64,000 nt of DNA, from the NCBI RefSeq assembly GCF_018977255.1, contig NW_024704772.1, positions 1,302,001 to 1,366,000 on the forward strand, written 5' to 3'. Positions within the stretch are counted from its first letter, which is position 1. The number at the start of each line of letters is the position of its first letter. The notes below the pieces were generated by a model that was given only the letters and a program-made list of their open reading frames with translations, was not told where the DNA came from and searched no databases. Made by a program: the position numbers and the translations under genes. This document shows, one piece after another, positions 35,716-64,000 of this stretch. This DNA is from Callorhinchus milii (Eukaryota).

Positions 35716-36147
35716 AAACACCCACACACTGATTTTCTTGGTAGAACGCCTTTCACATCAGGAGGATGTCTCGGAACCCTTCGCAGGATTTACTGTAAAG
35801 TGTAATGACTCAGTGTTGTGAGGGTGAACCTCGTACTCTTTTTTTCCCCCCTCACCCCTCCTCCCGCTTTCTAACTTACACTGTGCGACTTACACTGCTT
35901 GAGCTGTGGCGCTGAGGGTGGGTTAATGTTTTGCCTTTGACGCTGTGTATATAGAATAACACACACACACACGGCGCGGCAAACCAAAACAAGCCTGGCT
36001 TCTTCTACAGTGCTTACACGGCACGCATTCTGAACGATACTGGGACTGGCGCATCAGGTCGTAAGTAACCTGCTTGTGTTCAAATCCCCTTCCCCCCCCC
36101 CCTCCCCGTTTTCAGGTGCGGCCACCCGGAGAGGAGGAAGGAGCACG

Positions 36148-39100: not shown

Positions 39101-40055
39101 GAACACACAGTACTCCCGCTCGGTTTATTGGCTGAGATTTCCTTTGCCTCGGGTCTGGCGAGGAAGCTGGCCAGTTCCTTCTCTGTCGTAACGGTCGCAT
39201 CCAGAATATTTTACTTAATTCCAAAAAGGAGCCTTTGGGATATCTGCCTGGGAACTATCGTCGGGGCCTGGGGAGCCCCAGAAATCTTCTGTTTTGTCAA
39301 CGTTACAGGATGTTTATGTCTTAAATTTTCAATCTCTCACCAAACACTCTTATCTTCTCTCTTACCCCCCCCCCCCCTTCCCCACCTTCAAAGATAACGT
39401 CAAAATGTTTCAAAGTGCTTCACAGGCAATTGCTGTCACTCACTAGTTCTTGGAGGTGAATGCAGTTGTACCCATCTCAAGAACCCCCTCTTCGACCATG
39501 CCTTCGGTCACCTACCCTCCCCGCCCTCCACCCCTCCTGATCCCAACCACCAGCTTGGGTGCGGATCGCTGAACGCCCAGTGCTTTGGGACTTCCTCCTG
39601 ATGTGAAAGGCGCTGTGTAAATGTCATTTGTTGTCATTGCCCTGAGACGCTGCCACGCCTGAAGGGCGCTGTATAAATTCAAGGTGTTGTTGTAAGGAAA
39701 CGATTGCTGTGCTCTGATTCCTGTTGGTTTTCTCTTTTCTTCCCCCCACCACCACCACCCTCTCCTGATTCCCACCCACCTCAACTCCCCCTCCGCAGGT
39801 GAGAAACCCCATCAGTGCAGTGTGTGTTGGCGTTCGTTCTCGCTGAGGGACTACTTGATAAAGCACATGGTCACGCACACGGGGGTGCGGGCGTATCAGT
39901 GCCCCGTGTGCAACAAACGCTTCACGCAGAAGAGTTCCCTTAACGTACACATGCGGCTGCACCGCGGGGAGAAGGCCTTCGAGTGTCACGTCTGCAACAA
40001 GCGCTTTTCCCACAAGACTCTGCTGGAGAGGCACATGGCCACGCACATCATTTAA
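36148..40055 (+). CDS. ZBTB45: Zinc finger and BTB domain-containing protein 45, 612 aa
   Basis: Exons 36148-37729 (acceptor at 36115/6, donor G|gtagg) and 39799-40055; 1839 nt. [31 protein letters not shown]; four C2H2 fingers including [11 protein letters not shown] and [12 protein letters not shown]; stop directly after finger 4 as in ZBTB45, whereas ZBTB20 has five fingers. Confidence 0.88.
37815..38075 (+). mobile_element. 5'-truncated tRNA/CORE SINE
   Basis: Matches the body and tail of the 40127 copy. Confidence 0.7.
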
Positions 40056-40126
40056 CTTTGGCTAGGCCAAGCCAAGCCACGCCAAGCCCACCCGGGAGAA
40101 ATCAGAGACACCCATTCAAGCAACCT

Positions 40127-40490
40127 GGAGTGCACGTAGCGTAGTGGTTAGAGCGCTCGCCTCGCAAGCGAGAGGACCTGGGTTCGACTCCCGACTGGGA
40201 AGAAACCTTAGGCAAGTTTTTTTACTCCGCACACACGCTTCTGTTTACCCAGGAGTAAGTAGGAACCCCGGTTGTTAGTCGATTGGCAGATCGCTTTCCG
40301 GGGGCAATAATCCCTCCACACACAACAAAAAAATTAGGTCACGCAATCCGCGACTGTTGGTGGGACACTGCTGTGCACAATTAGCTGCACGTTTCACCCA
40401 CACAATACACAGATAATCCACTTTACAATATATCCTGTGAAGCGCTTTGAGACGTCTCAACGACGTGATAAGGCTCTGTATCAAGTAATA
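40127..40490 (+). mobile_element. Full-length tRNA-derived CORE-type SINE with L2-like tail
   Basis: A box TAGCGTAGTGG, anticodon-like arm CTCGC-CTCGCAA-GCGAG, B box GGTTCGACTCC, CORE-like ttaggcaagttt...tttacccag, tail ctgtgaagcgctttgagacg...gataagg. Confidence 0.85.
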
Positions 40491-43030
40491 ATGGTAATAC
40501 TTGCATTTGATATAGCGCCTTATCACATGTTCTAGTCGTCTCAAAGCCCTTCACAGAATATACTGTAAAGTGAATTGTCTATATTTTGTGGGCGAAATCA
40601 AATATAAGGATTATTATTATTTATTATAACCTGGGCGCGGACCATGCCTGACTCACAATACACTAACCTGTGATTTAAATCTTACACCAGCTTTGGGGGG
40701 AGTGGATATATATAATACCATAATGGTCTCTCCAGCACAGCGCCTGGCTATGTGGTCTGTGCACAAAGATGTTACACAGCAAAGACCATTGCGAGTGCTC
40801 TGAGGGGTTTTAAAGAGAGGGAGAGGGGGTAATACACTGGTTAGCCAATGGGATGGTGTGGTGGGATAATCTACTGACCTTTCCGACTGTGGCCCCTTTG
40901 TCTTGTTCGGTTCCCCCTGCCCCGAACCCATGGGTCAGTGAGTGTGTGTGTGTGATGGTGACCATTCATGTTCTGGGTATTGGGGATGGGGGTGGGGGGG
41001 AAAGGAAATGGCTGTAAATATAGCCTAACTCTCAGTCGCAAGGTTTTTTTTAAAAAAAGAAGAAAAAACGTAAAATAATGAATCTAACTTGCAATTGGTG
41101 CCTTTTTACAAATTGAACAAAAATGAAAGTGAAATATTTTTGTTGCCTTGTTAAAAAAAAAAGTTTCCAATGGTGCGTGGGGATGTGGGGGGGGGGGGAG
41201 AGAGAGAGATTGGAGATCTGAGATTGGGGTTAAAACCAGCCTCACTCACATCCCCCGAGAGAGATTGATGGCTGGAGACTGACTTACAGGTGCTGTCATT
41301 CCTCAGTCTATACTCCCACATTCCATTCCTTGCCTCGGAGATGACATTGCTGGCGTCTTAAGCACTTATCGTCACATCAGCAGGAATCTCTTATGGTAGG
41401 AATGAGAATTCCTCAAGTCTGATCCCCTATAAAGAAAGTGTCCTTCAGTCATCGCACAATAGCGCTTGGTACGTCGTGGCTCTCCAGTAATGTGCGTTTT
41501 AAGCACAAACGTTTCACCTTATCTAAGCTAATTTCTCACGCTGTGCACCTTTGTAAAATGAATGAGTATTTGGACCCGCTTGATTTAGATGCTTGGTTAA
41601 GGAATGGGGGGGGGGGGGTGAATAACGAACGGACTGATGACAATTACTGCAGTATTCTAAGGTGTCATTTCACTACCATGATAAAACAGGATGACTGGTA
41701 AACAGTGAGGAATTTTATATTGGGGTCCGTTTTTTTTCATTTGTGCATTTCAACCCAAAAGTTAATCACTGGAAAGGTTCCCCCTCTGGTTAGTTTGGCT
41801 TAATTTACTTTCTATTTCCCCGTCAGTAACCACGTATGTAGTGGGTAGTTGTCTCTCTGTATTCTAATGTTGCCTTTGGCTGCTAACTCGGATGCCCGAA
41901 TTGTGGATGTATTACGAAACCTTAGTATTTGGGCTACAGGGAAGAATTCCACCCACCTCTCGATTTATCCTCTTTCCATCTGGAGAGATTGATGGAAATT
42001 CCTCAATTCAAATGCTTTTCAGAGAATTTCAGAGCGTCCAAACTTAGCAAATTGCTGAATTAATTCTGGTCTTCAGAAGCCGGCTTGCTGAAGTTTCTCA
42101 AAAGAAAAAACTTGCAGAAAACCTGGCTTCAAAACGAAGATTCTGTTTCAGAAACTACCAAATTGTGCAGGTTATGAAACAATGCATGAGGAGAATAATT
42201 CTGGAGCCGGGTGGAATTTCTGCTCACATTAAAGAAGAAAAGATGCGAATGAAGCTTTTTGCTTTTTTTTAGAAAAGTTTTAGTTTTGCAACATTTTTAT
42301 CTTTTCACCCCTTCAAAAAAACTGAACTATCTTCTGCCTTTGAAGGAAGCAGTGGATGGTTTAAATTTGGAACATTGTACAGACACTTCCTTTGGTGTTT
42401 GAGGTTAAGGAGGGATGGGCGGACGGACTTACTCTTGCTGCTAAGACAGGTAACAACCCCAGTTTGTGGGTAAGCTATCACCCAGAGCTGACACCTCCTG
42501 GTCAGGAGTCGACTAGTGACTACATCTGGGTTAACCCTAGGTTTGCAATAAAGGAAGGGAATTGGGGATTGATTGTGTGGCATATAACTCTATACCAAGC
42601 AGCCCTATAAACACCCCAGGGACTTGCTCTATGGATGTCTTCCCAACATGAAAGGCGCGATATAAATGTAATTTGTTCTTGTTGTTGCTCCCCAGACACG
42701 AGGGATGCTCTGAGACCCACGTTGCAAAATAGAGGACCTTTCCCTGTATTAATGATCTGTAATTTGCAAGCTACTTTCTCCAGCAGGCAGGAAAGGGAGT
42801 AGCGATGGAAGATGTTGACATGAAGATGAGCAATAAGAAAGGAAGCTATTGGGAAAAGAATGTTTTGCAAGTTGACCAGAGAGGTAGCTACCAGACAGAA
42901 AAGAATGACAGGCACCAGGTAAGGACAGATGAGCTGGAGTGGGCAAGGAGGAATTATCAGAGCTACAATTCAGTTGTTGTCAGAGTGTAGATATAACCTA
43001 AAACAAGTTTTTTTTATGATCTGGAGGAGT

Positions 43031-43384
43031 GAAGTCCTGTAGCATATGGGTTAGAGCACTCGCCTCGAAAGCGAGAGGACTCCGGTTCAATTTCCGGGCA
43101 GGGTGAAACCTTAGTCAAGTTTCCTTACTTCACACGCCTTGTTTACCTAGCAGTAAGTAGGAACCCGATTGTTAATCGATTTCCGGGGGTAATAATTCCA
43201 AAAAAAATAATAATTTGGTCACCCAGTCCATGACTGTTTGTAGGACACTGCTGTGTGCAATTGGCTGGCGTCTTTTGCCCACAAAATATACAGTCAATTC
43301 ACTTTACAGTATATTCTGAGAAGCGCTTTGAGATGTCACAACGACGTGATGAGGCGCTATATCAAATGCAAAGATTATTATTAT
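43031..43384 (+). mobile_element. Full-length tRNA/CORE SINE
   Basis: Same head, body and (TTA)n tail as the 40127 copy. Confidence 0.85.
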
Positions 43385-45319
43385 GATGATGATGGGAAAT
43401 TCAACCTTGCGGAATCTTTCTTGTCGTGTATTTCAGTGTTGTCGCTGAGACATGTAAGTGTTTGTTAATGACAGTAAGTGCCTCCGTACAGTCCACAACC
43501 ACTGCTTGTGACGGAACATCTATAAAAAGTTTATTTGGGACGAGGTAGATTTTTTTATATGAAAAAAAGAGACATTTTTATCGTAAATCGTTATAAAGTA
43601 CGAAGAGGATTTTTAAAAGTAATTAACGGTGTGAAAGGACTTACCTGTAGACCGGATCTGATAAGGCACACTCCTTTTGGGGGTGGAACAGTCTGCAACA
43701 TATTTATAGGTAGATTTGAGTAAATGTGTGAATTGTTTCTAAGTGCAATAGCCTATGGCGTGAAGCAGTGTATTACTGAGTAGCTGTCAATGTTCGAGGG
43801 AATGAATGTCTGACAGATGGGATCACTGTTGTTTAAGAGTGGAATCCTGATAAAAGCAGAATCATCTGTGCAAGTTACGCAGATCCATTTCATTCACTTG
43901 CATCAAAGTCACATTGCACATCAAAGTGCTCGATCTGTTACTCCCTCAACCCCACAACCATGTGCAATGCGTGGGATCAGGATTCCACTCAACTCGTTAC
44001 ACAAGTTACACGGTTCTCATGAGTGTTTGCTTCTGGACAAGGATCATGTCCCACCCAAGAGCTTCACAACACACATACGTCAAACAACAACTTTTTTCTG
44101 GTCAAAGGCACGAACTTGGCTTTCTATATACGTTGTGAGAAGTGCTGCCTAATTCTGCTGCTTTGAGCCAGTAGTGTTTTTTTTTATATTTAAAAAACTG
44201 TGTTAAGTGTGGGTACTCGCTTTACAGAGATGTGTGTGAGTGGTACGTGACAGTGGCAGGTGACGTGGTCATATTATATGGTCCTTTGCTTATGGCATTG
44301 CAATCAGTTCTCGAACTGTGCCACTTACTGTTGTATTTGTCATTGTTATTCACAACTTATCATATCACAAAAGTGGACAAAAATTGAGAGAGAAAAAAAG
44401 ACGGCCTTCAGCTCATTTAATCATTCACTTTACGGCGGGCTCAGTCTACACTAACACTAACCAACATATTACTGCTTTAACGTTACTTTTAACCACGAGT
44501 TTTGAGAGAAAAAACTGATCTGTGAACGTTTTCATTTCTTGCACGTGTCGCTGTCTTTTAAATAAAAAATTAGGCAAAGAATCAAATGCAGTATTAAAAA
44601 GATACTGAGCACTGAAACTGGAATGGGCTGTGGAATTATTTGTTCGATGAAAATGCCGGTGGTTTCAAGGCAAAGTGTGAGCAAAAGCCGTGATCTGATC
44701 CATCTGCAAAGTTGGTTCAACATCTCAGCTAAAGGACAATGTCTCCAACGAGGCATTGCTCTCCCCAGCACTGTGCTTTTGATTGGTTTGCAGATGGATT
44801 GTAGAAATCTATCGCTATGCTTAGAAGTATCCAAACCGAGTCCCACTTACACGTGTCACGGATACATGGAAATTACACTTGCACGTTTTGGAATGGAACG
44901 AGACACACGCCATTCTCACTTAAATTGGCTGCCCCCGTTTGGCCCACGCAACCTCCGTTCAGTTCACTTTAAAGCATGCAGCTCTCTGCGAAGCGCTTTG
45001 AGGCGCCTCAGTGACGCGACGGTATAGGCGCTATGTTCTGCGAAGAGCCGTGAGACAGCTCGAGCGACTCGATAGGGTGCCAGTATTATTACCATCCGGA
45101 AGGATTATTACTAAAGCCAAAGGGGCGAAGCCAAGGCTTGAGGGGAAGCCATAGAGAGTGCATTGGGGTACATGCTGGCGTTTAAGCAGCTGAAACTGCA
45201 CAGCTTGCCCATAGAGAGAGAGAGAGGGAGGGAGGGAGGGAGGGAGCACTGTGTTGGCAAGTCAGACAGATGCTCACTGGTACCTCTCTCTCTCAGTGTA
45301 GTGAGCACAGCTGGCTCAC

Positions 45320-45467
45320 GTTGCCTCACTTCCGCCCCGCTCGCTGCCTGACTGATCGCCATGGTGCCCCGCAGTCCGTGTCGTCAGTTCCGGTCCGAGC
45401 CCGTGCCCGAGCGCTGAGGAGACCCCGCGGCGCGGGCTCGCTCTCTTTCCCTCTCGGGCTGCGCGAC
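45320..45467 (+). promoter_or_regulatory. RPS11 promoter with TCT initiator / 5'TOP tract
   Basis: ETS site CACTTCCG (45327-45334) with adjacent GC box; CTCTCTTTCCCTCTC at 45441-45455; YY1-like ACATGGCGG over the start codon. Confidence 0.8.
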
Positions 45468-48685
<3,218 letters not shown>

Positions 48686-48734
48686 ACTCTCAGGTGGAGA
48701 CTGTCTGCCCTGGAGGATATCGCCATCACATCAC

Positions 48735-48740
48735 AATAAA
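48735..48740 (+). terminator. RPS11 polyadenylation signal
   Basis: AATAAA 50 nt after the stop, followed by a GT/T-rich element. Confidence 0.85.
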
Positions 48741-50010
48741 AGGTTTATAAGAAGGTTGAACGGCTTATAATTTGTGTCTCATTGAGTGTGAAACAATCAT
48801 CTTTGGGCTACTTGCTCTTCCAACAAATCCCATTGCATCCCACTTCTCAATCCCTCCTCCTTCCCTATCTTCACATCACATCTGAAGACCTTGCTCTTCA
48901 ACCGTGCCTCTCCATTACTGTTAAGCTTGCTGGGGCGCAACAACAGCAACAACATTCTTGTTGTGCCCCTCGCACGGTGTAGCCTCCCAGAGCGCTTCTA
49001 TGAATGGTGCTGCGGAAATGCAATTTGTTGACGATGCTGTAGGGTTGGAAGGACCCTGACGTTGGGAATGAAGGGAAGAAAGTAGGCTGCTGAGGTCTGA
49101 TTTCTTTGGTCAAGACTTTTAAAGGCAAACCTGTGAAATGTTTGGATGCTGCTGTTGTGATGTTTGAGAGTCATTTGAGCAAATGGTGCTCAGGATTGGG
49201 AAAGGAAGCTCTCTTGTGGCAGAGCAGATGAAGTGCACTCAATGCATATCTTCCCACATCAAATGCCCGTGTCCTCATAGTCACCCGTGGTCCAACAGGG
49301 GTCGCTAGTTAGGACCACAGAGGCCTGAAATTACACCAACTCTCTTAATATTCAAGGCGCACAGTTGTGGAATATTGATTTGAGGGTTTTAATGTAAAAG
49401 CTTTCAAGACCAAACTGAACATTCCAACCACCTAAACTTTAGGATTTCAGGGCCTTGGTGGGTAGATTTTCCTCCCTCACCCACTTCCTGTGGAGGGAGG
49501 ACAGAGCCCTGTAACACCTGAACGCTTCCTCCAGTGCGATCAATGAACTCGCACACTCACTAACTGAGTGTCGTGCAATTGTGTTGTAACTGGAATTGAG
49601 CCTCGTTAAGGATTAGCCTGTGCGGTAAGGACGAGTTTTGCTACCATGAAAAGTAATTCTCCGTGACGATGCCAGCAATGTTTTTATTTTGAGCTGCGTG
49701 AGCAAGTTACATAACATATTGTTAGTTACAACCTTCAGTGGTTTCTGAATTATTATTTTTTTTTGCCAGCAATTTAAACGTTTGCCGTGTTTCGCCCACA
49801 CAATACATAGTCTCCCCAATTTACAACGTTTTCTGTGAAGGCGACAATGCGATAAGGCGTTATGTCCAATGCAAGAATTATTATGATTATTTTGGGGTCC
49901 AATCTTGGCTGGCACATTCCTCTACCATAGGGGTTAGTTTTCAAAGCTCTTGCTGTCAGCAGCTTGGTGGAATTTGCCTGATTGAGTGCCTTTAGGAGAT
50001 GGGAAGAACT

Positions 50011-50016
50011 TTTATT
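50011..50016 (-). terminator. Candidate DHDH polyadenylation signal
   Basis: AATAAA on the minus strand 50 nt after the stop. Confidence 0.6.
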
Positions 50017-50065
50017 CCCAGGAAGTGACCGGCTGGCATCTGTGTGTCCGGAGCTCTTTGCCCGG

Positions 50066-53000
50066 CTACATGTTAGTGCGTTGCTTCCAGGCTGCAGCAC
50101 TGGGCTCCCCCTGCTGTTGGCACAGTTTGGGCCCTGGCACCGTATCCTGTGGGTAAATCACTCCTATTTGCTTGCGGACCTCGTCCATGATGCTTGCGAT
50201 GAGCTCGCTCTCAGCCAGTGGAATCAGGGGGCACTCCTTCAGGCCTGGGGATTCAAACATGAAATGGCATCAGAGAGGCTGGCCACGGAGAGAGATTCGG
50301 TGCAAACGTGCGCATCGGCCGTATATCAAACGCTCTCAGTCACACAGAGTCCCTGAGTCTCGTCCTGTACTTTTGCGTGGCAATGTGTTTACCAGAGAGG
50401 CTGTACCGGTCGTTAATTTCCTCTTCCCCCACCCCCCACACCCCACACCCACCCCGAATTTTTTTTTTAAAAATCAATAAATTAACGGCTCATTTTGGGG
50501 ACGTCGCCGTGTGCAAAATTGGCTGCCGTGTTTGCCCTCGCAAACGCACACAAGTCAGCTTACTGCACCGTAAACTCCCGTGAAGCGCTTTGAGATGTCC
50601 CGACGACTTGACAAGGCACCTCGTTGACACGGTGCGGTTTCTGTGCCGATTGCCGATTCCTGCCCTTGCACCATAACGCGCTTTGCGACCAAAGAAACCT
50701 TCGCAGCTGGGGAGGTTAATAGTTTTCACGAGAGGCAAGTGCAAGGTGTGGTAACGGTGAGACGGGGCGGAAGCTCACCTTTCTGGAGGCACTGACGGAC
50801 CTCCTCGGCCTCGTAGCGCAATCCCATGCTGTGCGGGAAGTTGAGAGGCTGGGAGGGCTCGGGCAGGGGGAACTCTTGCTTCTCTCTGTTCACCACCAGG
50901 CGAGTCGGGCACCACATGTGGTCAGGGATCTTCGGGGATTAACAACACAAAGGAGTAAAACATCACAACAGTGCCAATTTCCCCATCCCCGCACTAACGA
51001 CAACAACAACTTGCAGTTATAGAAGTGCCCCTCGCGCAGGGCAGCGTCCCAGAGCGCTTGAAGATTAAGCAGTTTCCCGCTGCAGGATTTGCTGTGCCTT
51101 TTTCCGTGGAGGTAAATATTGTGAGGGAGGTGATGTGGGAGTTTCCCCCTGTTTCCCCCTGGACCGAGTCTGATGATGTATCTCTGGGCCTCTTATTCGT
51201 TCCTTCCCATCTTTGCATTAATTTCCTACCGGCTGAGGTTTCAGTCTGTCAGAGAGATGGGTCTGTCCCCTGTCTGCCCACTGGCCCACATTACAGCACA
51301 GCTTTACCTTGATGGTGCCCTTGGTCCCTACAATGGTCGCCTCGTTGGTCAGTTGTACGGCCATCGTCACCGTCACAACAGCCATCCTCTTTCCCGAGTA
51401 CTTCAGCACGATCGTCACAGACTCGTCAACACCTAGGCCGGCCGAGAGGAGAGGGTACAAGTGTGACTCACCCAACCTGTGAAGTCCTACCCCCACCCTC
51501 CCTGCCCTCGCTCCATCCCTCCTGATCCCATCCCCCAGCTCGGGTGCAAATCACTGACTGTCCATCAGTGGGAGAGAAAAAAAAACAGCCGTGGTCTCTC
51601 CTTGTGCTCTCCTCTACCAACGCACCTTCGATCATCTTCCTAACTACCCCCATCCTCCCTACCCTCGCTCCACCTCTCCTGATCCCAACCCCCTGCTCGT
51701 GTCCAAATCCCTGACTGTCCGGTGCCTCGGGACAACAACAACAACAAAAATGACATTTGTAAAGCGCCTTTCACATCGGGAAGACGTCCCAAGGTGCTGG
51801 ACAGAGGACAGACAGAGTTATGAACCCGAGTTGGGTGTCGGGGTGGAGGGCGGGGGGGGAGCAGGGAGATCGAAAGATCCTCCCGATGTGAAAAGGGCAC
51901 CGTGTAAATGTCATTTATTGTTGTTGAATATTGTATTCTCCTCCCCTCTCCCCCCCCCGTCCCCCTCCATGATGTTCCAGTTAATCACTCTGTTTTCCAC
52001 AGGGAGTCCCTTGGGAAAGTATTGGCGGTTTCCCACATGTACCTGTGTGGGTCAGGAATCCAGTGGCATCAATGGAGTCTGGTTTTTCTCCCTTGAAAAC
52101 CATACAGACAAACTGTATGCTGTTACAGCCAATGTCTAGGAGCACCCCACCTCCCAGCTCTTTCTGCATCAGACGAGGAGTGTCCATCATGTATATGCCT
52201 TGCTCGACTATAACCATCTTTATATCCCCCAGGACATTCTGCGACAGGAGGCTCCGAATGGTGTTGGAGACTGGAAAGAAACGAGTCCATAATCCCTGGG
52301 GGTGAGGGGGAGAAAGCAGGTCAGTGTGGAGTCCTATAGCCTAGTGGTTAGAGCGCTCGCCTCACAAGCAAGAGGACACGGGGCAAAATCTTAGACAAGT
52401 TCCCTTACTCCACAAACACGCCTCTGTTTACCTAGCAGTATGAAGGAACCTGGTTGTTAGTCGATTGGCGGATCGCTTTCTGAGTATAATATTCCCTCCA
52501 AAAAGATCACTCGATCCACAACTGTTTAAGGGACACTGCTGTGCGCAATTGGTTGCCGCGTTTTGCCCACAAGATACAATCAATCCACTGTACAGTACAT
52601 CCTGACCAGTATCCAGCTGACCTCCATGAGGAACATGTTAGTCTGGCGAGCTGTCCTGACCAGCTCCTGGACCTCGCCCTCGTTCATGGCCAATGGCTTC
52701 TCACACAAGACGTTCTTCCCGGCCTCCATCATGGACAGCGCGACCTCCAGGTGACAGGGGTGAATCGTCCCCACGTAGATGATGTCTGTCAACAAACAGT
52801 TTCTCCTAAATGTCTTTCCCTTCATTTCCCTTCTCTTACCCCCTCCCGCCCCACAACCCACAAGATACACAATCAATTCACTCTACAGTAATAAGAACGA
52901 CAACTTGCATTTATATAGCGCCCCTCACGCAGGGTAGTTTCCCAAAGCACTTTTCCTGTCAAGCTTACTGTACTGGAATACCAGTGGATTACTATAACCC

Positions 53001-54111
53001 AACCACCTGATTTTATTCTCTCTGTCTTCCTCAATCCAGGAAAAAAAATCCTGTTAAGGTGTTAGTCGAGACAGGGGAGCAATGTTGGAAGCAAAGACAT
53101 TGAACCCCAAATCTTCTCCCAAACAGGATTACTGGGTGTAAAATGTGATGTGTGATGTGCTAATTAACACATTATAATTGGACATTAAACATTTCTCTCT
53201 CTCACACTCGTGCGCGCTCACCAGGTTTGGGATCTTGTGCCAGTTCCTCATATGAGCCGTAGGCAGTGGGGATGTTGTGCCGTTTGGCGAAGGCTTTGGC
53301 TCGCGAGAGATCCCGAGATGCCACACAAACCACCTGCGGGAGGGAAAGGAACAATTGTTCAGTTGGTATTGAGAGCTTCTCAACCAGTCTCTCTCTCTGT
53401 CTCTCTCTCTCACTCCGCTCCCCCTCTTTCCTCCCCTCTTCCCTTCCTTACACTCCCCGCCTCCCTACCCTCTCCTCTTTCGTCCCTCCCTCTCATCTCT
53501 CCCTCCCTCTCGTGTTCCCTCCCTCTCACAAATACACACTTTGTGGTAATGAACCGTGAAGCACTTTTGAGACATTTTGACATTAAAGGGCCTATAAAAA
53601 TACAAAGTTCTTCCTAATCACAAACACAGCGGTTTGAGATATCTCAACTACGTGATAAGGCGCGATATCAAATGCAAGGATTATTGTCCTGTTCTGACGA
53701 AGGGTCGTGGACCCAAAACGTTGATTCACTTTCCTTTCTTCATAGACGCTGCCTGACCTGAGTGTTCCCAGTGACTGCTGTTTTTGTTTCAGATTTCCAG
53801 CATCTGCAGAATCTTGCATTTTATGATTATTATTAATATTCTCTCTCTTCCCCTTTTACCCGGGTCTGTTCAAGTGAAGCTTAGAACAGACACTGCGACA
53901 CATAAAGACATCTGTCCTGCCCTAAGCCAGCAAACCCTTCTTTAACTTGGCCTCAATCTCTCCCAAAACAAGTTGCCGTCTGGAGGCGATGTGGCTCTCA
54001 GTAATCCGATGCAGTGATTACCTCATGATCTTCTGATGGCAGAGACCTTAAAGCCACCAAGAAGTCATGGCAGATCCTTCCCACCGAGCAGATGCCCCAT
54101 TTGGTAGCCAT
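50066..54111 (-). CDS. DHDH: Dimeric dihydrodiol / D-xylose dehydrogenase (Gfo/Idh/MocA family), 357 aa
   Basis: Exons (minus) 54022-54111, 53222-53333, 52622-52785, 52043-52295, 51308-51432, 50779-50929, 50066-50244; 1074 nt, in frame. [49 protein letters not shown]. Confidence 0.93.
52328..52600 (+). mobile_element. tRNA/CORE SINE in DHDH intron 3
   Basis: Head ggagtcctatagcctagtggttagagcgctcgcc plus family body. Confidence 0.8.
53691..53823 (+). mobile_element. Penelope-like terminal fragment
   Basis: gttCTGACGAAGGGTCGTGGACCCAAAACGTT (hammerhead G12 changed to A) followed by the family tail tttcagatttccagcatctgcag. Confidence 0.7.
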
Positions 54112-54785: not shown

Positions 54786-55304
54786 CAAAGATGTTTACAA
54801 AGTTAAGTACAACAAATTACTTTTTAGGCTTTGAGACATCCTTCCCCAAGTCGAAAGGGCATCTCAAAGTCACAGTGCAGTGAAGTGACTGTGTATTTGT
54901 AGATGAATGTGGCAGCACAATCGTCCACAGCGATGTCCTGCAAACAGCTATGGAGTGAGTGGCCAGTTGTATCTGGGGGACTGTGGGTCAGGACACCGGG
55001 AGAGATAAACTCCTATTTTCAAAGAGAGCCATAGGATCTTTAACCTCCACCTGAACAGGACAGAGGGTTTTAACATTGTCACCCGAAGAACGGCACCTCC
55101 AACAATGCCACACAGACCCACCGCAGCGCTGCATTGGAGCATCAGTTTAGACGATGTGTGTACGTAATAACAACAATGCATTTGATCTATCGCCCAGAAA
55201 GATCTCAAAGCCCTGAAAAGCATAGTGACTGCATTTTGTAGTCAATTACGCGCGCAGCGACATTCCCGCAAAGAGCCGTGAAGCGAACAACAGGATTTTT
55301 GTTG

Positions 55305-55915
55305 TGTGTGTATATATATACCTGTATGTGATGTGTGTATATATATACCTGTATGTGATGTGTGTATATATATACACCTGTATGTGATGTGTGTATATAT
55401 ATATCTGTATATGATGTGNNNNNNNNNNNNNNNNNNNNNNNNNNNNNNNNNNNNNNNNNNNNNNNNNNNNNNNNNNNNNNNNNNNNNNNNNNNNNNNNNN
55501 NNNNNNNNNNNNNNNNNNNNNNNNNNNNNNNNNNNNNNNNNNNNNNNNNNNNNNNNNNNNNNNNNNNNNNNNNNNNNNNNNNNNNNNNNNNNNNNNNNNN
55601 NNNNNNNNNNNNNNNNNNNNNNNNNNNNNNNNNNNNNNNNNNNNNNNNNNNNNNNNNNNNNNNNNNNNNNNNNNNNNNNNNNNNNNNNNNNNNNNNNNNN
55701 NNNNNNNNNNNNNNNNNNNNNNNNNNNNNNNNNNNNNNNNNNNNNNNNNNNNNNNNNNNNNNNNNNNNNNNNNNNNNNGTGTGTATGTATACCTGTATGT
55801 GATGTGTGTGTGTGTGTGTGTGTATATATATACCTGTATGTGATGTGTGTGTGTGTGTGTGCACCTCACACACCATATACAAGTGTATAGTATATAGTAT
55901 ATAGTATATATACAC
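55305..55915. repeat. TG/TA-rich minisatellite spanning an assembly gap (N 55419-55778)
   Basis: Unit tatatacctgtatgtgatgtgtg on both sides of the gap. Confidence 0.9.
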
Positions 55916-55931
55916 ACGATTTGGTTATAGC

Positions 55932-56162
55932 AGTTTCGATTCCTGATCTCTGTGTTAATCTCTGAACCGTTGCAGTTTCGCTTTCCCCCAAACCATGACT
56001 TGCGATCGGTGATCTCTGTGCGGCTCTGAGGTTTGAAGGATTAGACCTTCAGTCACTCGGAGACATCGGATGGAGAGTTAAAAGAGCGATTGAGTTCTTC
56101 TTCTCAACTTCGGTTTCTCTCCTCATCTTTGATTACGTGTCGAAAGCTGTTCATATGTGAGG
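55932..56162 (+). promoter_or_regulatory. ISRE/IRF-element cluster and putative non-coding first exon of the sacsin-like gene
   Basis: AGTTTCGCTTTCC (55974-55986) is a full ISRE consensus match; AGTTTCGATTCC (55932-55943); AACTTCGGTTTCT (56106-56118); donor-like tat|gtgagg at 56157. Confidence 0.6.
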
Positions 56163-56175
56163 TTTGAGATCAATC

Positions 56176-57065
56176 TCTTTTTCCTCCTCTCCCTTTTCCC
56201 CCTTTCTCTCTCTCTCTATTTCCCTCTCTCATTCCCCCTCTCTCCCCCTCCCTTTTCCCCCTTTCTCTCTCTCTATTTCCCTCTCTCATTCCCCCTCTCT
56301 CCCCCTCTCTTTTCCCCTTTTCTCTCTCTATTTCCCTCTCTCATTCCCCCTCTCTCCCCCTCTCTTTTCCCCTTTTCTCTCTCTATTTCCCTCTCTCATT
56401 CCCCCTCTCTCCCCCTCTCTTTTCCCCTTTTCTCTCTCCATTTCCCTCTCTCATTCCCCCACTCTCTCCCCCTCTCTTTTCCCCTTTCTCTCCTTTCCCT
56501 CTCTCATTCCCCCTCTCTCCCCCTCTCTTTTCCCCTTTTCTCTCTCCATTTCCCTCTCTCATTCCCCCACCTCTCCCCCTCTCTTTTTCCCTTTTTCTCT
56601 CCCTATTTCCCTCTCTCATTCCCCCTCTCTCATTCCCCTCTCTTTTTCCCTTTTTCTCTCCCTATTTCCCTCTCTCATTCCCCCTCTCTCCCCCTCTCTT
56701 TTCTCCCTTTCTCTCTCTATCTCTCTCTCATTCCCCCACCTCTCCCCCTCTCTTTTTCCCCTTTTCTCTCTCTATTTCCCTCTCATTCCCCCTCTCTCCC
56801 CCTCTCTTTTCCCCTTTTCTCTCTCTATTTCCCTCTCTCATTCCCCCTCTCTCATTCCCCCTCTCTTTTCCCCCTTTCTCTCTCTATTTCCCTCTCTTTT
56901 CCCCCTTTCTCTATTTCCCTCTCTCATTCCCCACCCCTCCCTCTCTCTTTTGCCCCCTTTCCCCCTATTTCCCCCCTTTTCTCTCATTTCCCCTTCCCAT
57001 TACTCCCCCCCCCCCCCTCTCATTCCCCTCTCTTTTGTCCCATTTCTCCCTTTCCCCCTCTCCCC
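56176..57065. repeat. Polypyrimidine satellite, ~56-bp unit
   Basis: Tandem ctatttccctctctcattccccctctctccccctctcttttccccttttctct; almost no G on the plus strand. Confidence 0.95.
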
Positions 57066-57725
57066 AATTTCCAAATCCCATTTCAATCCCATCCCAAACT
57101 GTATGTTGCAGTTGAAATGCTATTAAGTGAGTGATTCAATCGGTTGTGAATGAATGAATTAAATGAATTAATGAGCGTGAGGTTGAGAGAGCGATTTGGG
57201 TGGTGGGGGGTGTGTGGGGGGAATGGTAACTTTTTGGGGGAGATAGGGGGGGTGGGGGAAGGAGAGAGGGGGAAAGATAACCACAGGAGCCAGATTTCTG
57301 GTTGTAGGTTATTTGGGGTTTGAGTGGATGAGAGAGTGAGTTTGGATAAATAAAATGGGACTCTTTGATGTGAAATGTGTTTTTTTTAGGACAGGAATTG
57401 AGTGACTGAGAGTTGGGAGAGTTGCATACAAGTAAAGTGGAGGGAGGGTGAAGTTTTTTCCCCCCCTTCCCCCCCCCCCCCAAAAAAAAAATCTGATTGG
57501 GTTAATGCCATCCGGTCTTTGGAATTCGTGTTTCTCAATTACTTGCAAAACCACAATAATAATTGTATTTATTTTCTCTTTGTACTTTGTTAATTGTGCA
57601 CTGTACTTAACTGATAATAATAATCCTCGCATTTGATATAGTGCCTTATCGCACCTTTGAGATTATTATTCTACAACTCCCTTAAAGCACTTCGAGATAA
57701 GGCGCTGTATCAAATTTAAGGATTA

Positions 57726-58303
57726 TCTTCTATACTGATAAGATAAAATGTCCGTCTGTGCGTCCGCCAAGATCGCAATAACCCATCGCCAGAGAGACAT
57801 GATTTGTGCCTCATCGGAAAGGTCTTGCGTGGGAGCGTGTCACGGGCATCTTTTTTTCAGGAATTTCCTATCGTTGATGGGCTGCATATAAAAAAATATA
57901 TTTAAAAAAAAATACTTTAATTAAGCTCTGAAAAAGCACGCGTGGTATTCGGCAAGAACCGTAGCGGCAGAGGTCATACACCCTTCTGGTCGTACCCTAA
58001 TAAAGATAAAATGTGTGTCTGTCGTAGAGCCTAAATGAAATGTATGTCTCATTGATGTAGAGACAGCGACAGGAGTCCTCTTACAGGAGTTCACCCACTG
58101 AGTCCTCCCAAAAGGATACGTGTGCAAATCAGTGAACAAGGGATACCCGCGAGTTCAACAGCATATTTTCTTAATCTTGAGGGATAAATATGCCTCAGAA
58201 GCAAAGCTCAAGCCTTTAAAGGACAAATAAAAATGGTAGACATAAGAGAGAAGGACGATTAAATGAAACTGGTCACGAGTGTAGCTGCAACAGATACAGC
58301 TAG
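57726..58303 (+). mobile_element. Non-autonomous Helitron-like element
   Basis: A|TC...CTAG|T junctions with no TSD; splits a SINE tail (ggatta | ttattat); 5' end tcttctatactgataagataaaatgtccgtctgt; terminal hairpin TAGCTG..CAGCTA. Confidence 0.6.
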
Positions 58304-58339
58304 TTATTATGCAAATATAATAATAAATGATAACAATTA

Positions 58340-58846
58340 ATAATAATTATCCTTACATTGGAAACAGCGCCTTATCACATCTTTGAGACTCCTCAAAGCG
58401 CTTCATAGAGTACACTGTAAAGTGAATTGACTGTGCATTTTGTGGGCGAAACGCGGCAGCCGATTGCCCACTGTAATGTCCCTCAAACAGTCGTGGATGA
58501 GTGACCAAATTATTATTACTTTTAGTATTATTATTAATAGTTTGGGAGGGATTATTACTCCCGGAAAGCGATCCGCCAATTGACGAACAACCGGGTTCCT
58601 GCTTACTGCGAGGTAAACAGGCGTACGTGAGGCGTAAGGAAACTTGCCCAACCTGCCTGTCCTCTCATGAATCAAACCCAGGTCGCTTTACCTGAAACAG
58701 ACCAGTTTCATTTAATCGTCCTTCTCTCTTTTGTCTACCATTTTTATTTGTCCTTTTAACGGCTTGAGCTTTGCTTCTGAGGCATATTTATCCCTCAAGG
58801 TCTCGTTGCGAGGCGAGCGCTCCAATGACTAAGCTACAGGACTCCA
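58340..58846 (-). mobile_element. tRNA/CORE SINE interrupted by a ~115-bp insertion
   Basis: SINE reverse complement at 58340-58684 resumes at 58801-58846 (tctcgttgcgaggcgagcgctc...ctacaggactcc). Confidence 0.8.
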
Positions 58847-58932
58847 CATGTTTTATGACACATGCCAACTGTCCTAATCCTAACTTTTTTTTCTTTTGAT
58901 TTAGCTGCTGGAAAACACCCGGGGAAAGGAGG

Positions 58933-61900
58933 ATGCCGAAAGCAAGGTATTATTACTCTGAAATTCCCAGTGGTGTTTAGAGACATTTTACTATCTTTGT
59001 TGTTCTTGAATAATCTTCTTTTCGAGGTGCTTCAGTGCGAGCGACTCGGGTGTCGATTGTCTCATTAACTTGGGCCTTTTCTGTTTGTTCTCGGCGTAGA
59101 AAATCTTTCGGACAAAAGGTCCCGTCGTTGTTGGACTACCTCAAAGGGATCCTGCGACGATATCCTGATGGTGGGCAGATCCTTAAGGTAAGTCGTACAT
59201 TACGATAATAATAATAATAGTAATAATCCTTGCATTTGATATAGCGCTTTTCACGTCGGGAGGACGTCCCAAAGCGCTTCACAGAACACACTGTAAAGTG
59301 AATTGACTGTATATTTGTGGGCGAACGCGGCAGCCAATTGCGCACAGCAATGTCCCACAAACAGTCGTGGATTGAAAATGACCAATTTATTATTGTTTTT
59401 GGTGTTGGAGGATTATTATTAGGCTCTGTGTGGAGTAAGGAAACTTGCCCAAGGTTTCGCCCTCTGCCTGGAATTAAACTCAGGTCTCTCGCTCGCAAAG
59501 CGAGTGCTCTAACCACTGAGCTACAGGACAGGGTATTGGGCATATTGAGTCGTAGGGCAGTGATTTCTGCGCTCGCCTCGCAAGCGAGAGGACCCAGGTT
59601 CGATTACCCGGACGGGGCAAAAACGTAGGCAAGTTTCTTTACTCCACGCGCACGCTGCTGTTTATCCAGCAGTAAGTAGGAACCCGGTTGTTAGTCGATT
59701 GGCGGATTGCTTTCTCCATTAAAAAGAATATTCCATCCAATCTGTTTGTGGGGACGCTACTGTTGCGCATTTCGCTCCCGCGTTTCGCCCACAAAATACC
59801 CAGTCAATTCGCTTCAGAGAATATCCCGTGAAGCGCTTTGAGACGTCTCGAAGACGTGATCAGGGGCTGCGTCAAAGCAAGGATTGTTATTATCGTTCTT
59901 GTTGTGATCATCTGTGAACGTTCTGGCAGGAGCTGATCCAGAACGCAGACGATGCCGAGGCCAGCCAGGTGGTCTTTCTGTTTGATGAGCGGACACACCC
60001 GTCCCACTCGCTCGTCCTGCCCGAGCTGGAGCCCTTCCAAGGTGAGTGATTCCCGCCGGGAGGTCACTGCCCACGGCATTCCGAGACCCTTTCCCAGCGC
60101 GATGGGCGCTGCAAGTTGTCTGTCACTTTGCAACCTCTGTGCTGTCGCCTTTCCCTTCCAGGACCCGCCCTCTTCGTGTACAACGACTCCATGTTCTCCG
60201 AGGAGGACTGGGAGGGCATTCAGACCATCAGCTGCAGCGTCAAACGTAACGACCCCAACAAGGTGGGCCAGTTTGGAATCGGATTCAACTCCGTCTACCA
60301 CATCACAGGTGATTAAAAGTCGACCCACTTTGCAGCGTGTATCCTGTGAAGCACTTTGCGACGCATTGAAGACGCGCGATGGAATGCAAGGATTATTATT
60401 GTCCGCGCCCAGACAGCTCAGCCGCAAAGTGCTGACTTGAACCCCCACCCCCCCCATCTTTGGAGTCCCGTAGCGAAGACCCCAGTCCTGGCCCTCCCCC
60501 CCATCCCCAAACCCCGATCCCCGACCCCCCCAGTCCTGGCCAGACTACACTGGCTCCTGCCCCAGAGAGGATCGGCTTCAAGATCCTCGCTCTTGTCTTC
60601 AAATCCCTGCACTCCTCTGCACCCCCCGACCTCCCTGACCTCCTCTCTCCTCAGCACAGTGCCCGTTGCCTCCGTTCCTCCGGGTCTGGCCCCTCCTCAT
60701 CCCCCGAGTCCTCCGTTCCACCCTCGGCAGCTGTGCCTTCAGCCACTACGCCCCGAGGCTCTGGAACTCCCTTCCTCACTCCCTTCGTCTCGCTCCCTCC
60801 CTTCCCATTTTCAGGTCTCTGCTGAAGACCTTTCTTTTCGACCGCACCTTTGGTCACCTTCCTCCCCCTCCCCACCCACCCCCCACCCCAGCTCGGCCCC
60901 GGGATCCGTTACTGTAAAGCGCTCTGAGACGCCGTCTGGCGTGGAGTGTGTTATATAAATCCAAGTTGTTGTTGTGTCTCTCTCACTCTCTCTCTCCCGG
61001 TAGATTTACCGGCTATATTCAGCGGGAGCAGCGTGGCGATGCTGGAGCCCCGGGAGACGATCTTCGAGCGCGAGGGCGGCCGCCGGTGGTCGCTGGAGGA
61101 CGCGGGTGACCGGGAAGTGCTGGAACGGTGCCGGGACCAATTTCAACCATTCCGGGACGTCCTGCGGCAAGTGGATGGTGCCATGAGCTGGGACGCCGCA
61201 ATGGAGAGCCGGTATTTCCGCGGGACCCTGTTCCGCTTTCCCTTACGCCGGGCGCCCACCGCCATCTCCGAGACCCTGTACGACCCCGGGAAGGTCACGG
61301 AGCTGTTCGAGTCGTTCGCCGCCGACGCCGACATGAGCCTCCTCTTCCTCCGCCATGTCGCCTCCGTCTCCCTCGGGTACCTGCGGGCTGACGGGGAGAG
61401 AACCGAGACGGTGCTGCGGGTCAGCGCCGTGGCGCAGGACCTCCCACTCCTCTCGCCGGGGGCGGGCGGGTCCGGTACCTGCATCAAAACCGTAGCCCGG
61501 CGCCAGAAGAAGGAGGGTGAGGAGGAGCGTCCCGGGCAGAGTTGTCGGTGGCTGCTGACCACATGCACCGGGGCGGGCGAGGACCTGGCGGGGCTGGCCG
61601 CCAGCTTGAGCCTGACCCCGAGGGTGGACCTGGCGTTCCCGCTGACCGAGCCGGAGCCGGGCTTCACCGGGCGGCTGAGCTGCTACCTGCCGCTGCCGGA
61701 CAACGAGAGTAACCGCACGGGGCTGCCCGTCCACCTCAACGCCTCCTTTGGGCTGACCGACAACCGGCGGCACGTCAAGTGGCCGGAACCGGACCAGCAG
61801 CACGACGAGGCCGCCCGGTGGAACGAGCTGCTGGTCAGCGAGGTCCTGCCCCGTGCCTACGACCAGCTAGTCCTGGACGCCGTCGCCTTGGTCGATGCCA

Positions 61901-64000
61901 CCGACTCGGTGTCGCCGGCTGAGGTTTACCGGCTGTGGCCGGACCAGGACAAGACGGGGCGGATCGAGCGCTGGGCAGTGGCGGGAGACGGTATCTGCCG
62001 GCGCTTGGCGGGACTGGAAGCCCTGCGCCTGACCGCCGCCACCAACCACCCACGGTGGGTCAAAGCCGAAGGCGCCGTGTTCGTGCCACTCGGGGTCCGG
62101 CCGGTGCTGCGGCAGGCGCTGGCGCGAGCGCTGGCGGGCGCGGGTGAGCCGCTGGTCGAGGCTCCGAGCCATGTGTTACGCGCAGTGGAGAGAGTGCTGG
62201 AGGCGGCGGGAGGAGGAGGAGGGGGGAATCACATGGTGACCCCCGCCTCCCTCCGCCAGGCTCTGGTGGGCACCGGCGCCGGCCTGACCCCGGCAGAGAA
62301 GCTGCTGCTCCTGGAGTTCGCTCTGGCAGACGGGCGGTTCGGGGAGCTCAACGCCCTGCCTTTGCTTCCCCGCCGCGACGGCTCCTTCGCCCGGTTCCTG
62401 AGGACCGACCCCGGCCACGGGCTGACCCTGGTCGAAACGGTGAACTTCCCCCGGTGAGTTACCGATAAGTTGACCGGCCTGTGTATGTGTGTATCAGGGG
62501 GTGGGGGGGGGTTCTGTGTGTGTGTGTGTGTGTTGGGGTGGGGAGCACCGTCTTGCCTCCGTCTTTCGGACGAGACGTTAAAGCCTCGTGTCAGACTAAC
62601 GGGAGGAGAAGGGAAGAGTTTCTCTCTCCCGATATCCTAGCCGACAAGCTTGCCCCCTCCCCTCCCACCCCCCACCCCCCCCATTTTGTCCCCCCCCCTC
62701 CCCCATTTTTTTCCCCCACCGCCCCCACACTTTTTCCCCCCTCAACCCGTCCAAAACCAGTCACCTACTTCACTGCTGATTACTTTATGATGTTTTCTAC
62801 GGATTCCAGGATTTTGCTCCCTGGCTTTGAGGGCCGTTTCCTGCCGAGGGATCTTCAAGCCCATGTGGAGGAACAGCTGAAGGAGATTGCTCGTAGGAGT
62901 GAGTGTCCCCCCCCCCACCCACCCCCCACCCACGCACCGCCTCGCGTCTGCCCGGCCTCAACACTCTTGTCCGGTTTACAGTTACACCTCTTTCATCCCC
63001 GGACCTAACAAGTTCGATAGAGTCTCCGGCCCCGAAACACCTGCGACCCCCCCCCCCGCCCACCACTCCGGGAATCCAAATACTCACCATTATTTCGATT
63101 CACCCTGAGCTTCCTCACTCCGTGAAGGGCTTTGAGACGTCTCGACGACGTGATAAAGCTTTGAATCAAAGGCGAGGGTTATTATTATCATTGTTGTAAC
63201 TTTCCGGTGTTTTTACTCTCTCTCTCTCCCCCCTCTCTCTCTCCCCCTCTCTCTCTCTCCCCCCTCTCTCTCTCTCCCCCCCTCTCTCTCGGGCAGAAAT
63301 CTTCACAAGCCTGGTGTGTCTGGACAGTGCCCTGATCCTGCGGCTAGCCGGACAGTCCCTCCCGAAGGACTGGACCTCGGCTGAGGTGACGTGGGACCCG
63401 AGCGAGGCCGGACACCCTCCGGTGGGCTGGCTGAAGGCGTTCTGGCGTTTCCTGCGGGACCACTGCCCGAGGGGGCTGGGCAAGGCTGAGGGTCTGCCTC
63501 TTGTGCCGCTGGGTGACGGTGATGAGGATGAAGGAGGTGAGGGACTTCGCCTGGCCCGTCTCTCTGCGACCACTTCGGCGATTTTCCAGGAGCAGAGCAG
63601 CTCCGAGTTGCCAGGGTCCGTTGCCGGCCTGGTGGAGGATCTCGGCGGGAGAGTGATCCGATGCGTGGAGATCTTCCTCAACCACCCAAAGCTCGGTGAC
63701 TACATCTTGGCTCCCAATGCCAACAACGTCCTGAGGATCTTTCTCAACCTGGGCTCCAACCATGTGGTGCGGGAGATGACGAAATTCACCATCCGGGACA
63801 GACAGGCTCTGCGCACTTACCTGACCGAAGCTCCCTTCCTCGGCCAAGAGGAGAAACACCTACTAGGGAGGCTTCCCATCTTCCAGCAGATGCCGTCCCT
63901 TGGGTATCGGAGGGACAAGTTAGTGCCTCTTGCCGGCCAACTGGCCATGAGCAACAAGGACCTGCTCACGATCCCGGAAGATGTCCTCCTGCCCGAGACC
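58933..64000 (+). CDS. Sacsin-like protein (divergent paralogue), 5' part; continues past the window
   Basis: Exons 58933-58946, 59100-59187, 59930-60041, 60162-60308, 61004-62453, 62810-62898, 63297->64000, all phase-compatible. SRR1 Hsp90-like motifs [77 protein letters not shown]. The start codon is less certain than the rest. Confidence 0.9.
59203..59530 (-). mobile_element. tRNA/CORE SINE
   Basis: Reverse complement of the family, (TAA)n tail at left and head at right. Confidence 0.85.
59547..59893 (+). mobile_element. tRNA/CORE SINE
   Basis: Head gcgctcgcctcgcaagcgagaggacccaggttcgatt, body and tail. Confidence 0.85.
60520..60975 (+). mobile_element. L2 LINE 3' fragment in a sacsin-like intron
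   Basis: [40 protein letters not shown]....[10 protein letters not shown], then an L2 tail. Confidence 0.85.

What the first reader, a model, noticed from the sequence alone, without database searches (positions are those of the whole stretch)
55932..56162. ISRE cluster suggests the sacsin-like gene is an interferon-stimulated gene
A full ISRE (CAGTTTCGCTTTCCC) and two IRF-like elements fall within 190 bp of unique sequence wedged between two satellites, ending in a splice donor that points at the sacsin-like exons. There is no CpG island. Sacsin-annotated transcripts are known virus-responsive genes in teleosts, whereas mammalian SACS is known as a neuronal chaperone-like protein. This points to an ancient antiviral sacsin branch in cartilaginous fish.
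Basis: partly seen in the sequence, partly recalled or inferred. Interest (0 to 1): 0.75.

Follow-up and report, generated by a model that had tools for sequence, protein, structure and literature searches.

The report
Interferon switch on chimaera sacsin paralogue
In the elephant shark, a fast-changing extra copy of the giant chaperone gene sacsin (mutated in a human ataxia) has a rare pair of interferon-response DNA motifs 3 kb before its start codon, likely at its first exon, so viral infection likely switches it on as it does sacsin-like genes of bony fish, although induction is untested.

Summary
Largely confirmed. One exact ISRE (55974-55985) and a one-mismatch ISRE (55932-55943) lie 42 bp apart in single-copy DNA between two satellites; the third element is at chance level. 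The same tandem pattern occurs 10 times in the 991-Mb genome (Callorhinchus milii). Three of the other nine lie at CMPK2/viperin, OAS/OASL and a HERC cluster; no immune family was found near 14 control matches. The downstream gene is intact (4338 aa: three ATPase repeats, J-domain, HEPN, no ubiquitin-like domain) and spliced in contigs of three runs, with 91-192 extra 5' bases that map upstream of 57300. The 56156->58905 junction and induction were not seen. The genome has three sacsins; only this fastest-evolving one has the ISRE pair. The branch is not cartilaginous-specific: Ubl-less sacsin-like proteins form a clade across chondrichthyans, ray-finned fish, lungfish, amphibians and a lizard, not a teleost duplicate as published. 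Virus induction of teleost and oyster sacsin is already in print, so this is likely a new member of a known kind (about 70%). The scan has no earlier sacsin-ISRE note, but has similar ISRE first-exon notes for other genes in this genome.

The parts
55932..55943 (+). ISRE-like element 1 (AGTTTCGATTCC, one mismatch to AGTTTCNNTTTC)
55973..55987 (+). Exact ISRE, element 2 (core 55974-55985), 42 bp after element 1; would lie inside the 5' leader if the donor at 56156 is used
56106..56117 (+). Weak third IRF-like element, two mismatches, chance level
55965..56156 (+). Predicted non-coding first exon (5' end at or before 55965 if this donor is used), with two short uORFs (ATG 55995 and 56070)
   Evidence: inferred: 192 unplaced 5' nt in the X2 contig; uORFs; junction not seen
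56157..56162 (+). Candidate splice donor GTGAGG
   Evidence: sequence; not unique among candidates
55303..55861 (.). Upstream TG/TA-rich tandem array (period 27-29 and 41; N at 55419-55778)
56209..56911 (.). Downstream CT-rich 55-bp minisatellite, 12.7 copies
58905..58946 (+). Exon 2 with start codon at 58933
   Evidence: contig depth in its bin equals 40-42 nt in X1-X3
59100..59187 (+). Coding exon 3
   Evidence: spliced contigs X1, X2, X3
59930..60041 (+). Coding exon 4 (first ATPase N-box)
60162..60308 (+). Coding exon 5
61004..62453 (+). Coding exon 6 (Pfam SACS, E 1.6e-18)
62810..62898 (+). Coding exon 7 (predicted; restores the single open frame)
63297..64000 (+). Start of the 11.1-kb last exon; runs on to G000:C31:1376413 with repeats 2-3, J-domain and HEPN
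52613..54111 (-). 5' coding exons of the head-to-head DHDH-like oxidoreductase (ATG at 54111), the rival target 1.8 kb away
   Evidence: Pfam GFO_IDH_MocA; the name DHDH is recalled from sequence likeness

Best explanation
The block holds two same-strand interferon-response motifs 42 bp apart and is likely the promoter and non-coding first exon of an intact, spliced sacsin-like gene, so IRF factors or ISGF3 would bind there after viral sensing or interferon and switch the gene on. Shown: the motifs, their rarity, their co-location with known antiviral genes elsewhere in the genome, the gene model, splicing of exons 3-6, and an extra 5' exon upstream of 57300. Inferred: that this exon is 55965-56156, that the factors bind, and that expression is inducible. 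The product (three GHKL-type ATPase repeats with intact N-box and glycine motifs, a J-domain with HPD, a HEPN without the Rx4-6H RNase motif, no Ubl) most likely works as an induced ATP-driven clamp and Hsp70 co-chaperone on protein or nucleoprotein assemblies in infected cells rather than as a standard RNase. My odds, given induction: chaperone-type about 55%, atypical nuclease about 20%, other 25%.
For: Tandem pattern AGTTTCNNTTYC-N5-45-AGTTTCNNTTYC: 10 matches in 991 Mb including this one. Of the other 9, one lies just upstream of an ORF in a gene with a dTMP-kinase exon, head-to-head with viperin, one is inside an OAS/OASL cluster, and one lies between a HECT end and the RCC1 start of tandem HERC genes. 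No immune family was found in 118 of 183 candidate ORFs around the 14 reversed-pattern matches. Contigs of X1 and X3 join exons 3-6 and of X2 exons 3-5; after exon 2 they leave 125, 192 and 91 nt with no listed piece in 57300-62460. One open frame of 4338 aa, domains, motifs. Sister gene B (C31:720-735 kb) has no exact or relaxed ISRE in 60 kb and canonical SACS has no pair in 140 kb. Ten IRF-domain loci (18 exon matches) exist in the genome. Literature passages: lumpfish sacs-like induced and sacs repressed by poly(I:C) (PMC11357929); trout sacsin-like among 8 genes induced across blood cell types by IPNV (PMC11258392); cod (PMC3534563); oyster (PMC7064767); ISRE presence predicts induction of zebrafish IFIT promoters (PMC3688568).
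Against: The junction to 56156 was not seen, and donor-like sites at 57126, 57176, 57335, 54954, 54607 and 54561 remain open. No stimulated sample; the runs are one study and their RNA status is a guess. The tandem pattern was tailored to this locus and is not more frequent than its reversed control genome-wide (10 versus 14, though at least 8 of the 14 share repeat-derived words). Six of the other nine matches have no immune gene nearby (IP6K-type intron, DHCR7-type promoter, simple duplications). The HERC subtype was not determined. The ORF screen misses short exons. No orthologue was found, so conservation could not be tested. The induced teleost transcripts were not themselves placed on my tree. 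'sacs' does not occur in the main text of the zebrafish ISG survey (10.1101/693333; its tables were not visible).
Confidence: 0.7

Rival explanations
1. The motifs are functional but act as an enhancer, or on the head-to-head DHDH-like gene; the sacsin-like gene starts at another exon (for example ending at 57126).
For: DHDH-like ATG is 1.8 kb away on the other strand. The 57126 site (TAA|GTGAGT) is closer to the donor consensus than 56156. Human DHDH is induced by heat shock through a neighbouring gene's promoter (PMC12864986 passages).
Against: A 192-nt exon ending at 57126 would start inside the pyrimidine run and is CpG-poor. The listing (10 of 48 papers, titles and abstract starts) showed none on interferon induction of DHDH. 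Even as an enhancer the pair would likely still induce the sacsin-like gene.
Confidence: 0.15
2. The block is the first exon of a constitutively expressed gene, and the ISRE likeness is chance or vestigial.
For: Spliced contigs are present in three runs with no known stimulation. About 1 in 90 windows of 64 kb would hold such a pair by chance at the background rates. Six of nine other tandem matches are not at immune genes.
Against: For a given 260-bp block the chance is about 4e-5 (from rates). The pair sits on the one sacsin copy that evolves fastest, in the clade whose teleost members are named in virus-response studies. Basal expression of interferon-stimulated genes is common (recalled).
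Confidence: 0.12
3. The motifs came in with a transposable element or arose from the flanking satellites and have no regulatory role.
For: The block is flanked by two tandem arrays, and the right one is rich in TTTC/TTCC words.
Against: The block has a single match in the genome (that search skips simple repeats) and shares no unit with either array.
Confidence: 0.03

Closest known systems
Teleost sacs-like / sacs2 (lumpfish XM_034562115, trout LOC110505631, cod, sole, sea bass; zebrafish si:dkeyp-118h9.7)
   Same: Virus- or poly(I:C)-induced sacsin-annotated transcripts (PMC11357929, PMC11258392, PMC3534563, PMC8875540; passages read). Teleost proteins of about 4250-4300 aa without Ubl fall in the same clade as this gene.
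   Different: Only 37-39% identical. No promoter analysis appeared in the passages read. PMC8395086 calls sacs2 probably a teleost genome-duplication product, which the tree does not fit. This gene has Trp where 105 of 109 scored relatives have the second HEPN His.
Human SACS (sacsin, ARSACS) and its elephant shark orthologue on C4
   Same: Three sacsin repeats, J-domain, HEPN; matching exon blocks in the first repeat.
   Different: 31-32% identity. No Ubl here (first N-box at residue 35 against median 118). Canonical SACS is conserved (85% chimaera-shark, 71% to human) and has no ISRE pair in 140 kb. HEPN signature differs: Arg and no His in canonical; Gln plus His in the sacsin-like clade.
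Tiamat-like Type XI-A proteins (bioRxiv 10.64898/2026.09.30.754977; passages read)
   Same: Described as aquatic-chordate SACSIN homologues with three ATPase domains, J and HEPN, lacking Ubl; related to the antiphage ATPase Tiamat; antiviral role stated as open and untested.
   Different: The passages give no promoter or interferon link. My hits extend the group to amphibians, lungfish and a lizard. No PD-(D/E)xK nuclease was found here.
Tandem-ISRE promoters of vertebrate ISGs (IFIT, PMC3688568; zebrafish herc7c, PMC10003058; passages read)
   Same: Two same-orientation ISREs close to the start of the gene.
   Different: Those were tested with reporters. Here the stronger site would lie just inside the transcript, and nothing is tested.

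Membership tests
ISRE-driven interferon-stimulated gene | ISRE consensus (AGTTTCNNTTTC) above chance | tested here: met
   One exact and one 1-mismatch site 42 bp apart; 0 of 4 background exact sites have a partner; 10 tandem matches genome-wide
ISRE-driven interferon-stimulated gene | ISRE close to the transcription start of the gene | tested here: inconclusive
   An upstream exon exists outside 57300-62460 and lengths fit 55965-56156; junction not seen, other donors open
ISRE-driven interferon-stimulated gene | Induction by interferon, poly(I:C) or virus, dependent on the ISRE | not testable with these tools
   No stimulated run identified; contigs give no levels
ISRE-driven interferon-stimulated gene | Conservation of the element in orthologues | not testable with these tools
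   No other vertebrate genome held; no protein above 44% identity in the divergent region
Sacsin family | Three sacsin repeats with GHKL ATPase motifs | tested here: met
   Pfam SACS x3; N-box at 35, 1364, 2363 and glycine motif at 107, 1438, 2435
Sacsin family | J-domain with HPD and C-terminal HEPN | tested here: met
   WHPDK at 4108 (Pfam DnaJ E 0.005, below cut-off); HEPN E 7e-9; best structure match 3O10
Canonical SACS orthologue | N-terminal ubiquitin-like domain and placement with human SACS | tested here: not met
   No Ubl; the orthologue is the C4 gene (P0125, 100%)
Ubl-less sacsin-like clade (Type XI-A) | Groups with fish and amphibian sacsin-like proteins | tested here: met
   29-row clade, 100/100; sister to B plus elasmobranchs, 98/98 and 100/100
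Active HEPN RNase | Rx4-6H catalytic motif (PMC3710099) | tested here: not met
   No R-x4-6-H in the last 135 residues; TQYPNCW at the site; the upstream clade-specific His is kept

The most novel reading that the evidence does not exclude
Jawed vertebrates carry a second, Ubl-less sacsin lineage that is a true interferon-induced antiviral effector related to the bacterial antiphage ATPase Tiamat. It has its own HEPN signature (His in 109 of 109 and a second His in 105 of 109 scored members, both essentially absent from canonical SACS) that may form an atypical nuclease site. In chimaeras it split early into a conserved ISRE-less copy and this fast-evolving ISRE-driven copy; mammals appear to keep only the neuronal SACS.
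Probability: 0.35. Interest if true: 0.72.

Novelty: new member of a known kind. Interest (0 to 1): 0.48.

Why it matters
Sacsin-annotated genes recur among the most induced transcripts in fish and oyster virus studies, usually explained through human SACS. This locus gives a cis-regulatory reason, assigns the response to a separate ancient paralogue, would date the interferon wiring to cartilaginous fish or show that it was gained twice, and offers a natural three-way comparison (A, B, canonical SACS) in one genome. That makes the open question in the Tiamat preprint, whether eukaryotic sacsin-like proteins remain antiviral, directly testable. The promoter type itself is ordinary.

Tried and rejected
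No RNA holder was listed on record; X1-X4 are guesses, used only for what their contigs join. X4 covered little. No reads or contigs were laid on the ISRE block itself, so the junction and 5' end stay open. Third element rejected as chance. No NF-kB-type or GAS-type regex match in the block. A chimaera-specific A+B duplication was rejected by the AU test (p 7e-44, LG+G4, 13 rows, 1985 columns), but A is the longest chondrichthyan branch, so attraction toward the base cannot be fully excluded. Searches for an elasmobranch orthologue of A found none; lists are capped (120 of 3256) and 50% clustering could hide one. The tree used 38 of 55 extracted rows (17 near-redundant or mis-extracted rows left out for time) and one long-branched outgroup. 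Paper searches listed no study of sacsin promoters or of sacsin induction in cartilaginous fish; most subscription journals are not held. Supplements of 10.1101/693333 and the Tiamat preprint were not visible and may list these genes. PMC3121481 was not held. No structure prediction was run. An ATPase structure search failed on frame and was not repeated.

Full report
Source. The window is G000:C31:1302001-1366000 of a 991-Mb genome. A sacsin gene on contig C4 of this genome is 100% identical over the searched region to the named Callorhinchus milii sacsin, so the organism is the elephant shark, a chimaera.

The observation. CAGTTTCGCTTTCCC stands at 55973-55987 and is the only exact AGTTTCNNTTTC in the window. 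A one-mismatch site, AGTTTCGATTCC, stands 42 bp upstream on the same strand at 55932-55943; 42 bp is four turns of B-DNA (recalled value, low weight). The third element (56106-56117) has two mismatches, a class found at 1.4 per kb in 461 kb of background, so I drop it. In that background exact sites ran at 0.009 per kb, and 0 of 4 had a partner within 60 bp. The block is single-copy and lies between two tandem arrays. It is not a CpG island (GC 0.45) but keeps its CpGs (o/e 1.0; top 6% of 811 comparable windows).

Is the pair meaningful? The pattern AGTTTCNNTTYC-N5-45-AGTTTCNNTTYC matches 10 places in the genome, against 14 for the reversed control, so the count alone is not enriched; at least 8 of the 14 control matches share repeat-derived words. 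Location is what differs. I fetched 10 kb on each side of all matches, masked repeats and scanned candidate ORFs. Of the 9 other real matches, C3 lies just upstream of an ORF in a gene with a dTMP-kinase exon, head-to-head with viperin (TIGR04278, E 4e-31), which is the CMPK2/RSAD2 pair (name and ISG status of CMPK2 recalled). C8 lies inside an OAS/OASL cluster, and C1 between the HECT end of one HERC gene and the RCC1 start of the next (subtype not determined). The remaining six gave an IP6K-type gene, a DHCR7-type gene, or nothing. Around the 14 control matches, 118 of 183 candidate ORFs gave two retrotransposon hits and one C1 domain, no immune family. The pattern was tailored to this locus and the ORF screen misses short exons, so this is support, not proof.

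The gene. Seven coding exons from ATG 58933 give one open frame of 4338 aa ending beyond the window: three Pfam SACS domains with intact ATPase motifs, a J-domain with HPD, a HEPN, and no ubiquitin-like domain. Contigs from three runs of one study are spliced: X1 and X3 join exons 3-6, X2 exons 3-5. Depth in the exon-2 bin equals 40-42 nt, and 125, 192 and 91 further 5' bases have no listed piece in 57300-62460 (table 8 was cut, but pieces of 68-88 nt were listed). So a non-coding exon lies upstream of 57300. If its donor is 56156, the contigs begin at 56032, 55965 and 56066, putting element 1 just upstream and the exact ISRE just inside the leader. The junction itself was not seen, and other donor-like sites remain. 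A DHDH-like gene starts 1.8 kb away on the other strand (ATG 54111).

Paralogues. The genome has three sacsin genes: this one (A), B at C31:720-735 kb (equal to the annotated C. milii sacsin-like P0012), and canonical Ubl-bearing SACS on C4. A is 49% identical to B, 46-48% to shark and ray proteins, 37-42% to ray-finned fish and 31-32% to canonical SACS; B is 67-76% identical to sharks and rays; canonical SACS is 85% identical to a shark. B has no exact or relaxed ISRE in 60 kb that includes its upstream neighbour; canonical SACS has two isolated exact sites in 140 kb and no pair. In a tree of the third repeat (38 rows, LG+C20), Ubl-less proteins from chondrichthyans, sturgeon, gar, bowfin, teleosts, lungfish, amphibians and a lizard form one clade (100/100), and a lamprey protein groups with canonical SACS (single long outgroup). 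A is sister to B plus elasmobranchs (98/98; 100/100 in a 1985-column tree), and an A+B clade is rejected (p-AU 7e-44). A's end branch is 0.62 against 0.35 from the same node to B. No shark orthologue of A was found. No mammal or bird was among the named sacsin-like hits listed (capped lists).

HEPN. Among hits with a scorable C-terminus, 109 of 109 sacsin-like proteins (of 122, two of them invertebrate) have His in the K-x-H motif and Gln in T-Q-Y-P, and 105 of 109 have His five residues after that Gln. Canonical SACS has Tyr or Phe (115 of 116), Arg (115 of 116) and Leu (116 of 116) at these places (of 120). A keeps the first His and has Trp at the second, with no Rx4-6H motif. By the criteria of PMC3710099 (passages) it is not a standard HEPN RNase; that paper notes families with an alternative His.

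Mechanism. Most likely IRF factors (10 IRF-domain loci in the genome) or ISGF3 bind the paired motifs at the start of the gene and induce a large ATPase and Hsp70 co-chaperone in infected cells. Motifs, gene and splicing are shown; start site, binding and induction are inferred (0.7). The protein's antiviral action is inference from domains only.

What is known. Passages read: lumpfish sacs-like is induced and sacs repressed by poly(I:C) (PMC11357929); sacsin is repeatedly induced by nodavirus in several fish (PMC8875540), by poly(I:C) in cod (PMC3534563), by IPNV in trout leukocytes (PMC11258392) and in oyster (PMC7064767). PMC8395086 treats zebrafish sacs2 as probably a teleost duplicate, which my tree does not fit, though sacs2 itself was not in it. 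The Tiamat preprint already describes Ubl-less aquatic-chordate sacsins and leaves their antiviral role open. ISRE-dependent induction is shown for fish IFIT and herc7c promoters. My searches listed no paper on a sacsin promoter or on sacsin induction in cartilaginous fish. Earlier scan notes show similar ISRE first exons at other genes of this genome, none for sacsin.

Verdict. A real, probably functional interferon-type promoter on a divergent sacsin-like paralogue: a new member of a known kind, with a useful correction to the family's history and a testable lead. Interest 0.48.

Noticed in passing
G000:C17:12874750-12874778 (L059/L060): A tandem ISRE match, with a CCAAT box beside it, lies between a DHCR7-type gene (Pfam ERG4_ERG24) and an oppositely oriented gene resembling NAD synthetase (recalled); a possible interferon link to sterol synthesis.
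   Followed up: partly
G000:C5:64869106-64869148 (L049/L050): The tandem ISRE match is part of a long near-perfect inverted duplication with ISRE-like sites on both strands and CpG o/e 0.93; no gene identified within 10 kb.
   Followed up: no
G000:C8:9853401-9873400 (L053/L054): Cluster of several OAS units, one ending in ubiquitin-like domains (OASL type), with a tandem ISRE inside.
   Followed up: partly
G000:C31:720000-735500 (L026/L027): Second Ubl-less sacsin-like gene (B), 67-76% identical to shark and ray proteins, head-to-head with a gene resembling a branched-chain aminotransferase (recalled); no ISRE pair. Shark proteins of this lineage are annotated plainly as 'sacsin' although they are not SACS orthologues.
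   Followed up: yes
proteins: Clade-diagnostic HEPN residues: two histidines and Arg-to-Gln in sacsin-like proteins, against Arg without His in canonical SACS; may mark an atypical active site.
   Followed up: partly
window 36034-54111 and L004: Neighbours are a BTB zinc-finger gene, RPS11 (Pfam S17), the DHDH-like gene and, downstream, a PH-domain gene resembling PLEKHA4 (recalled; no Pfam hit on the short exon tried), matching the human DHDH/PLEKHA4 region named in PMC12864986.
   Followed up: partly
window 55995 and 56070: Two very short upstream ORFs (5 and 3 codons) in the predicted leader.
   Followed up: no
G000:C3:14260000-14261000 (L047): The first ORF of the CMPK2-like gene runs into a GC-rich repeat and seems to lose frame there; could be an assembly error.
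   Followed up: no
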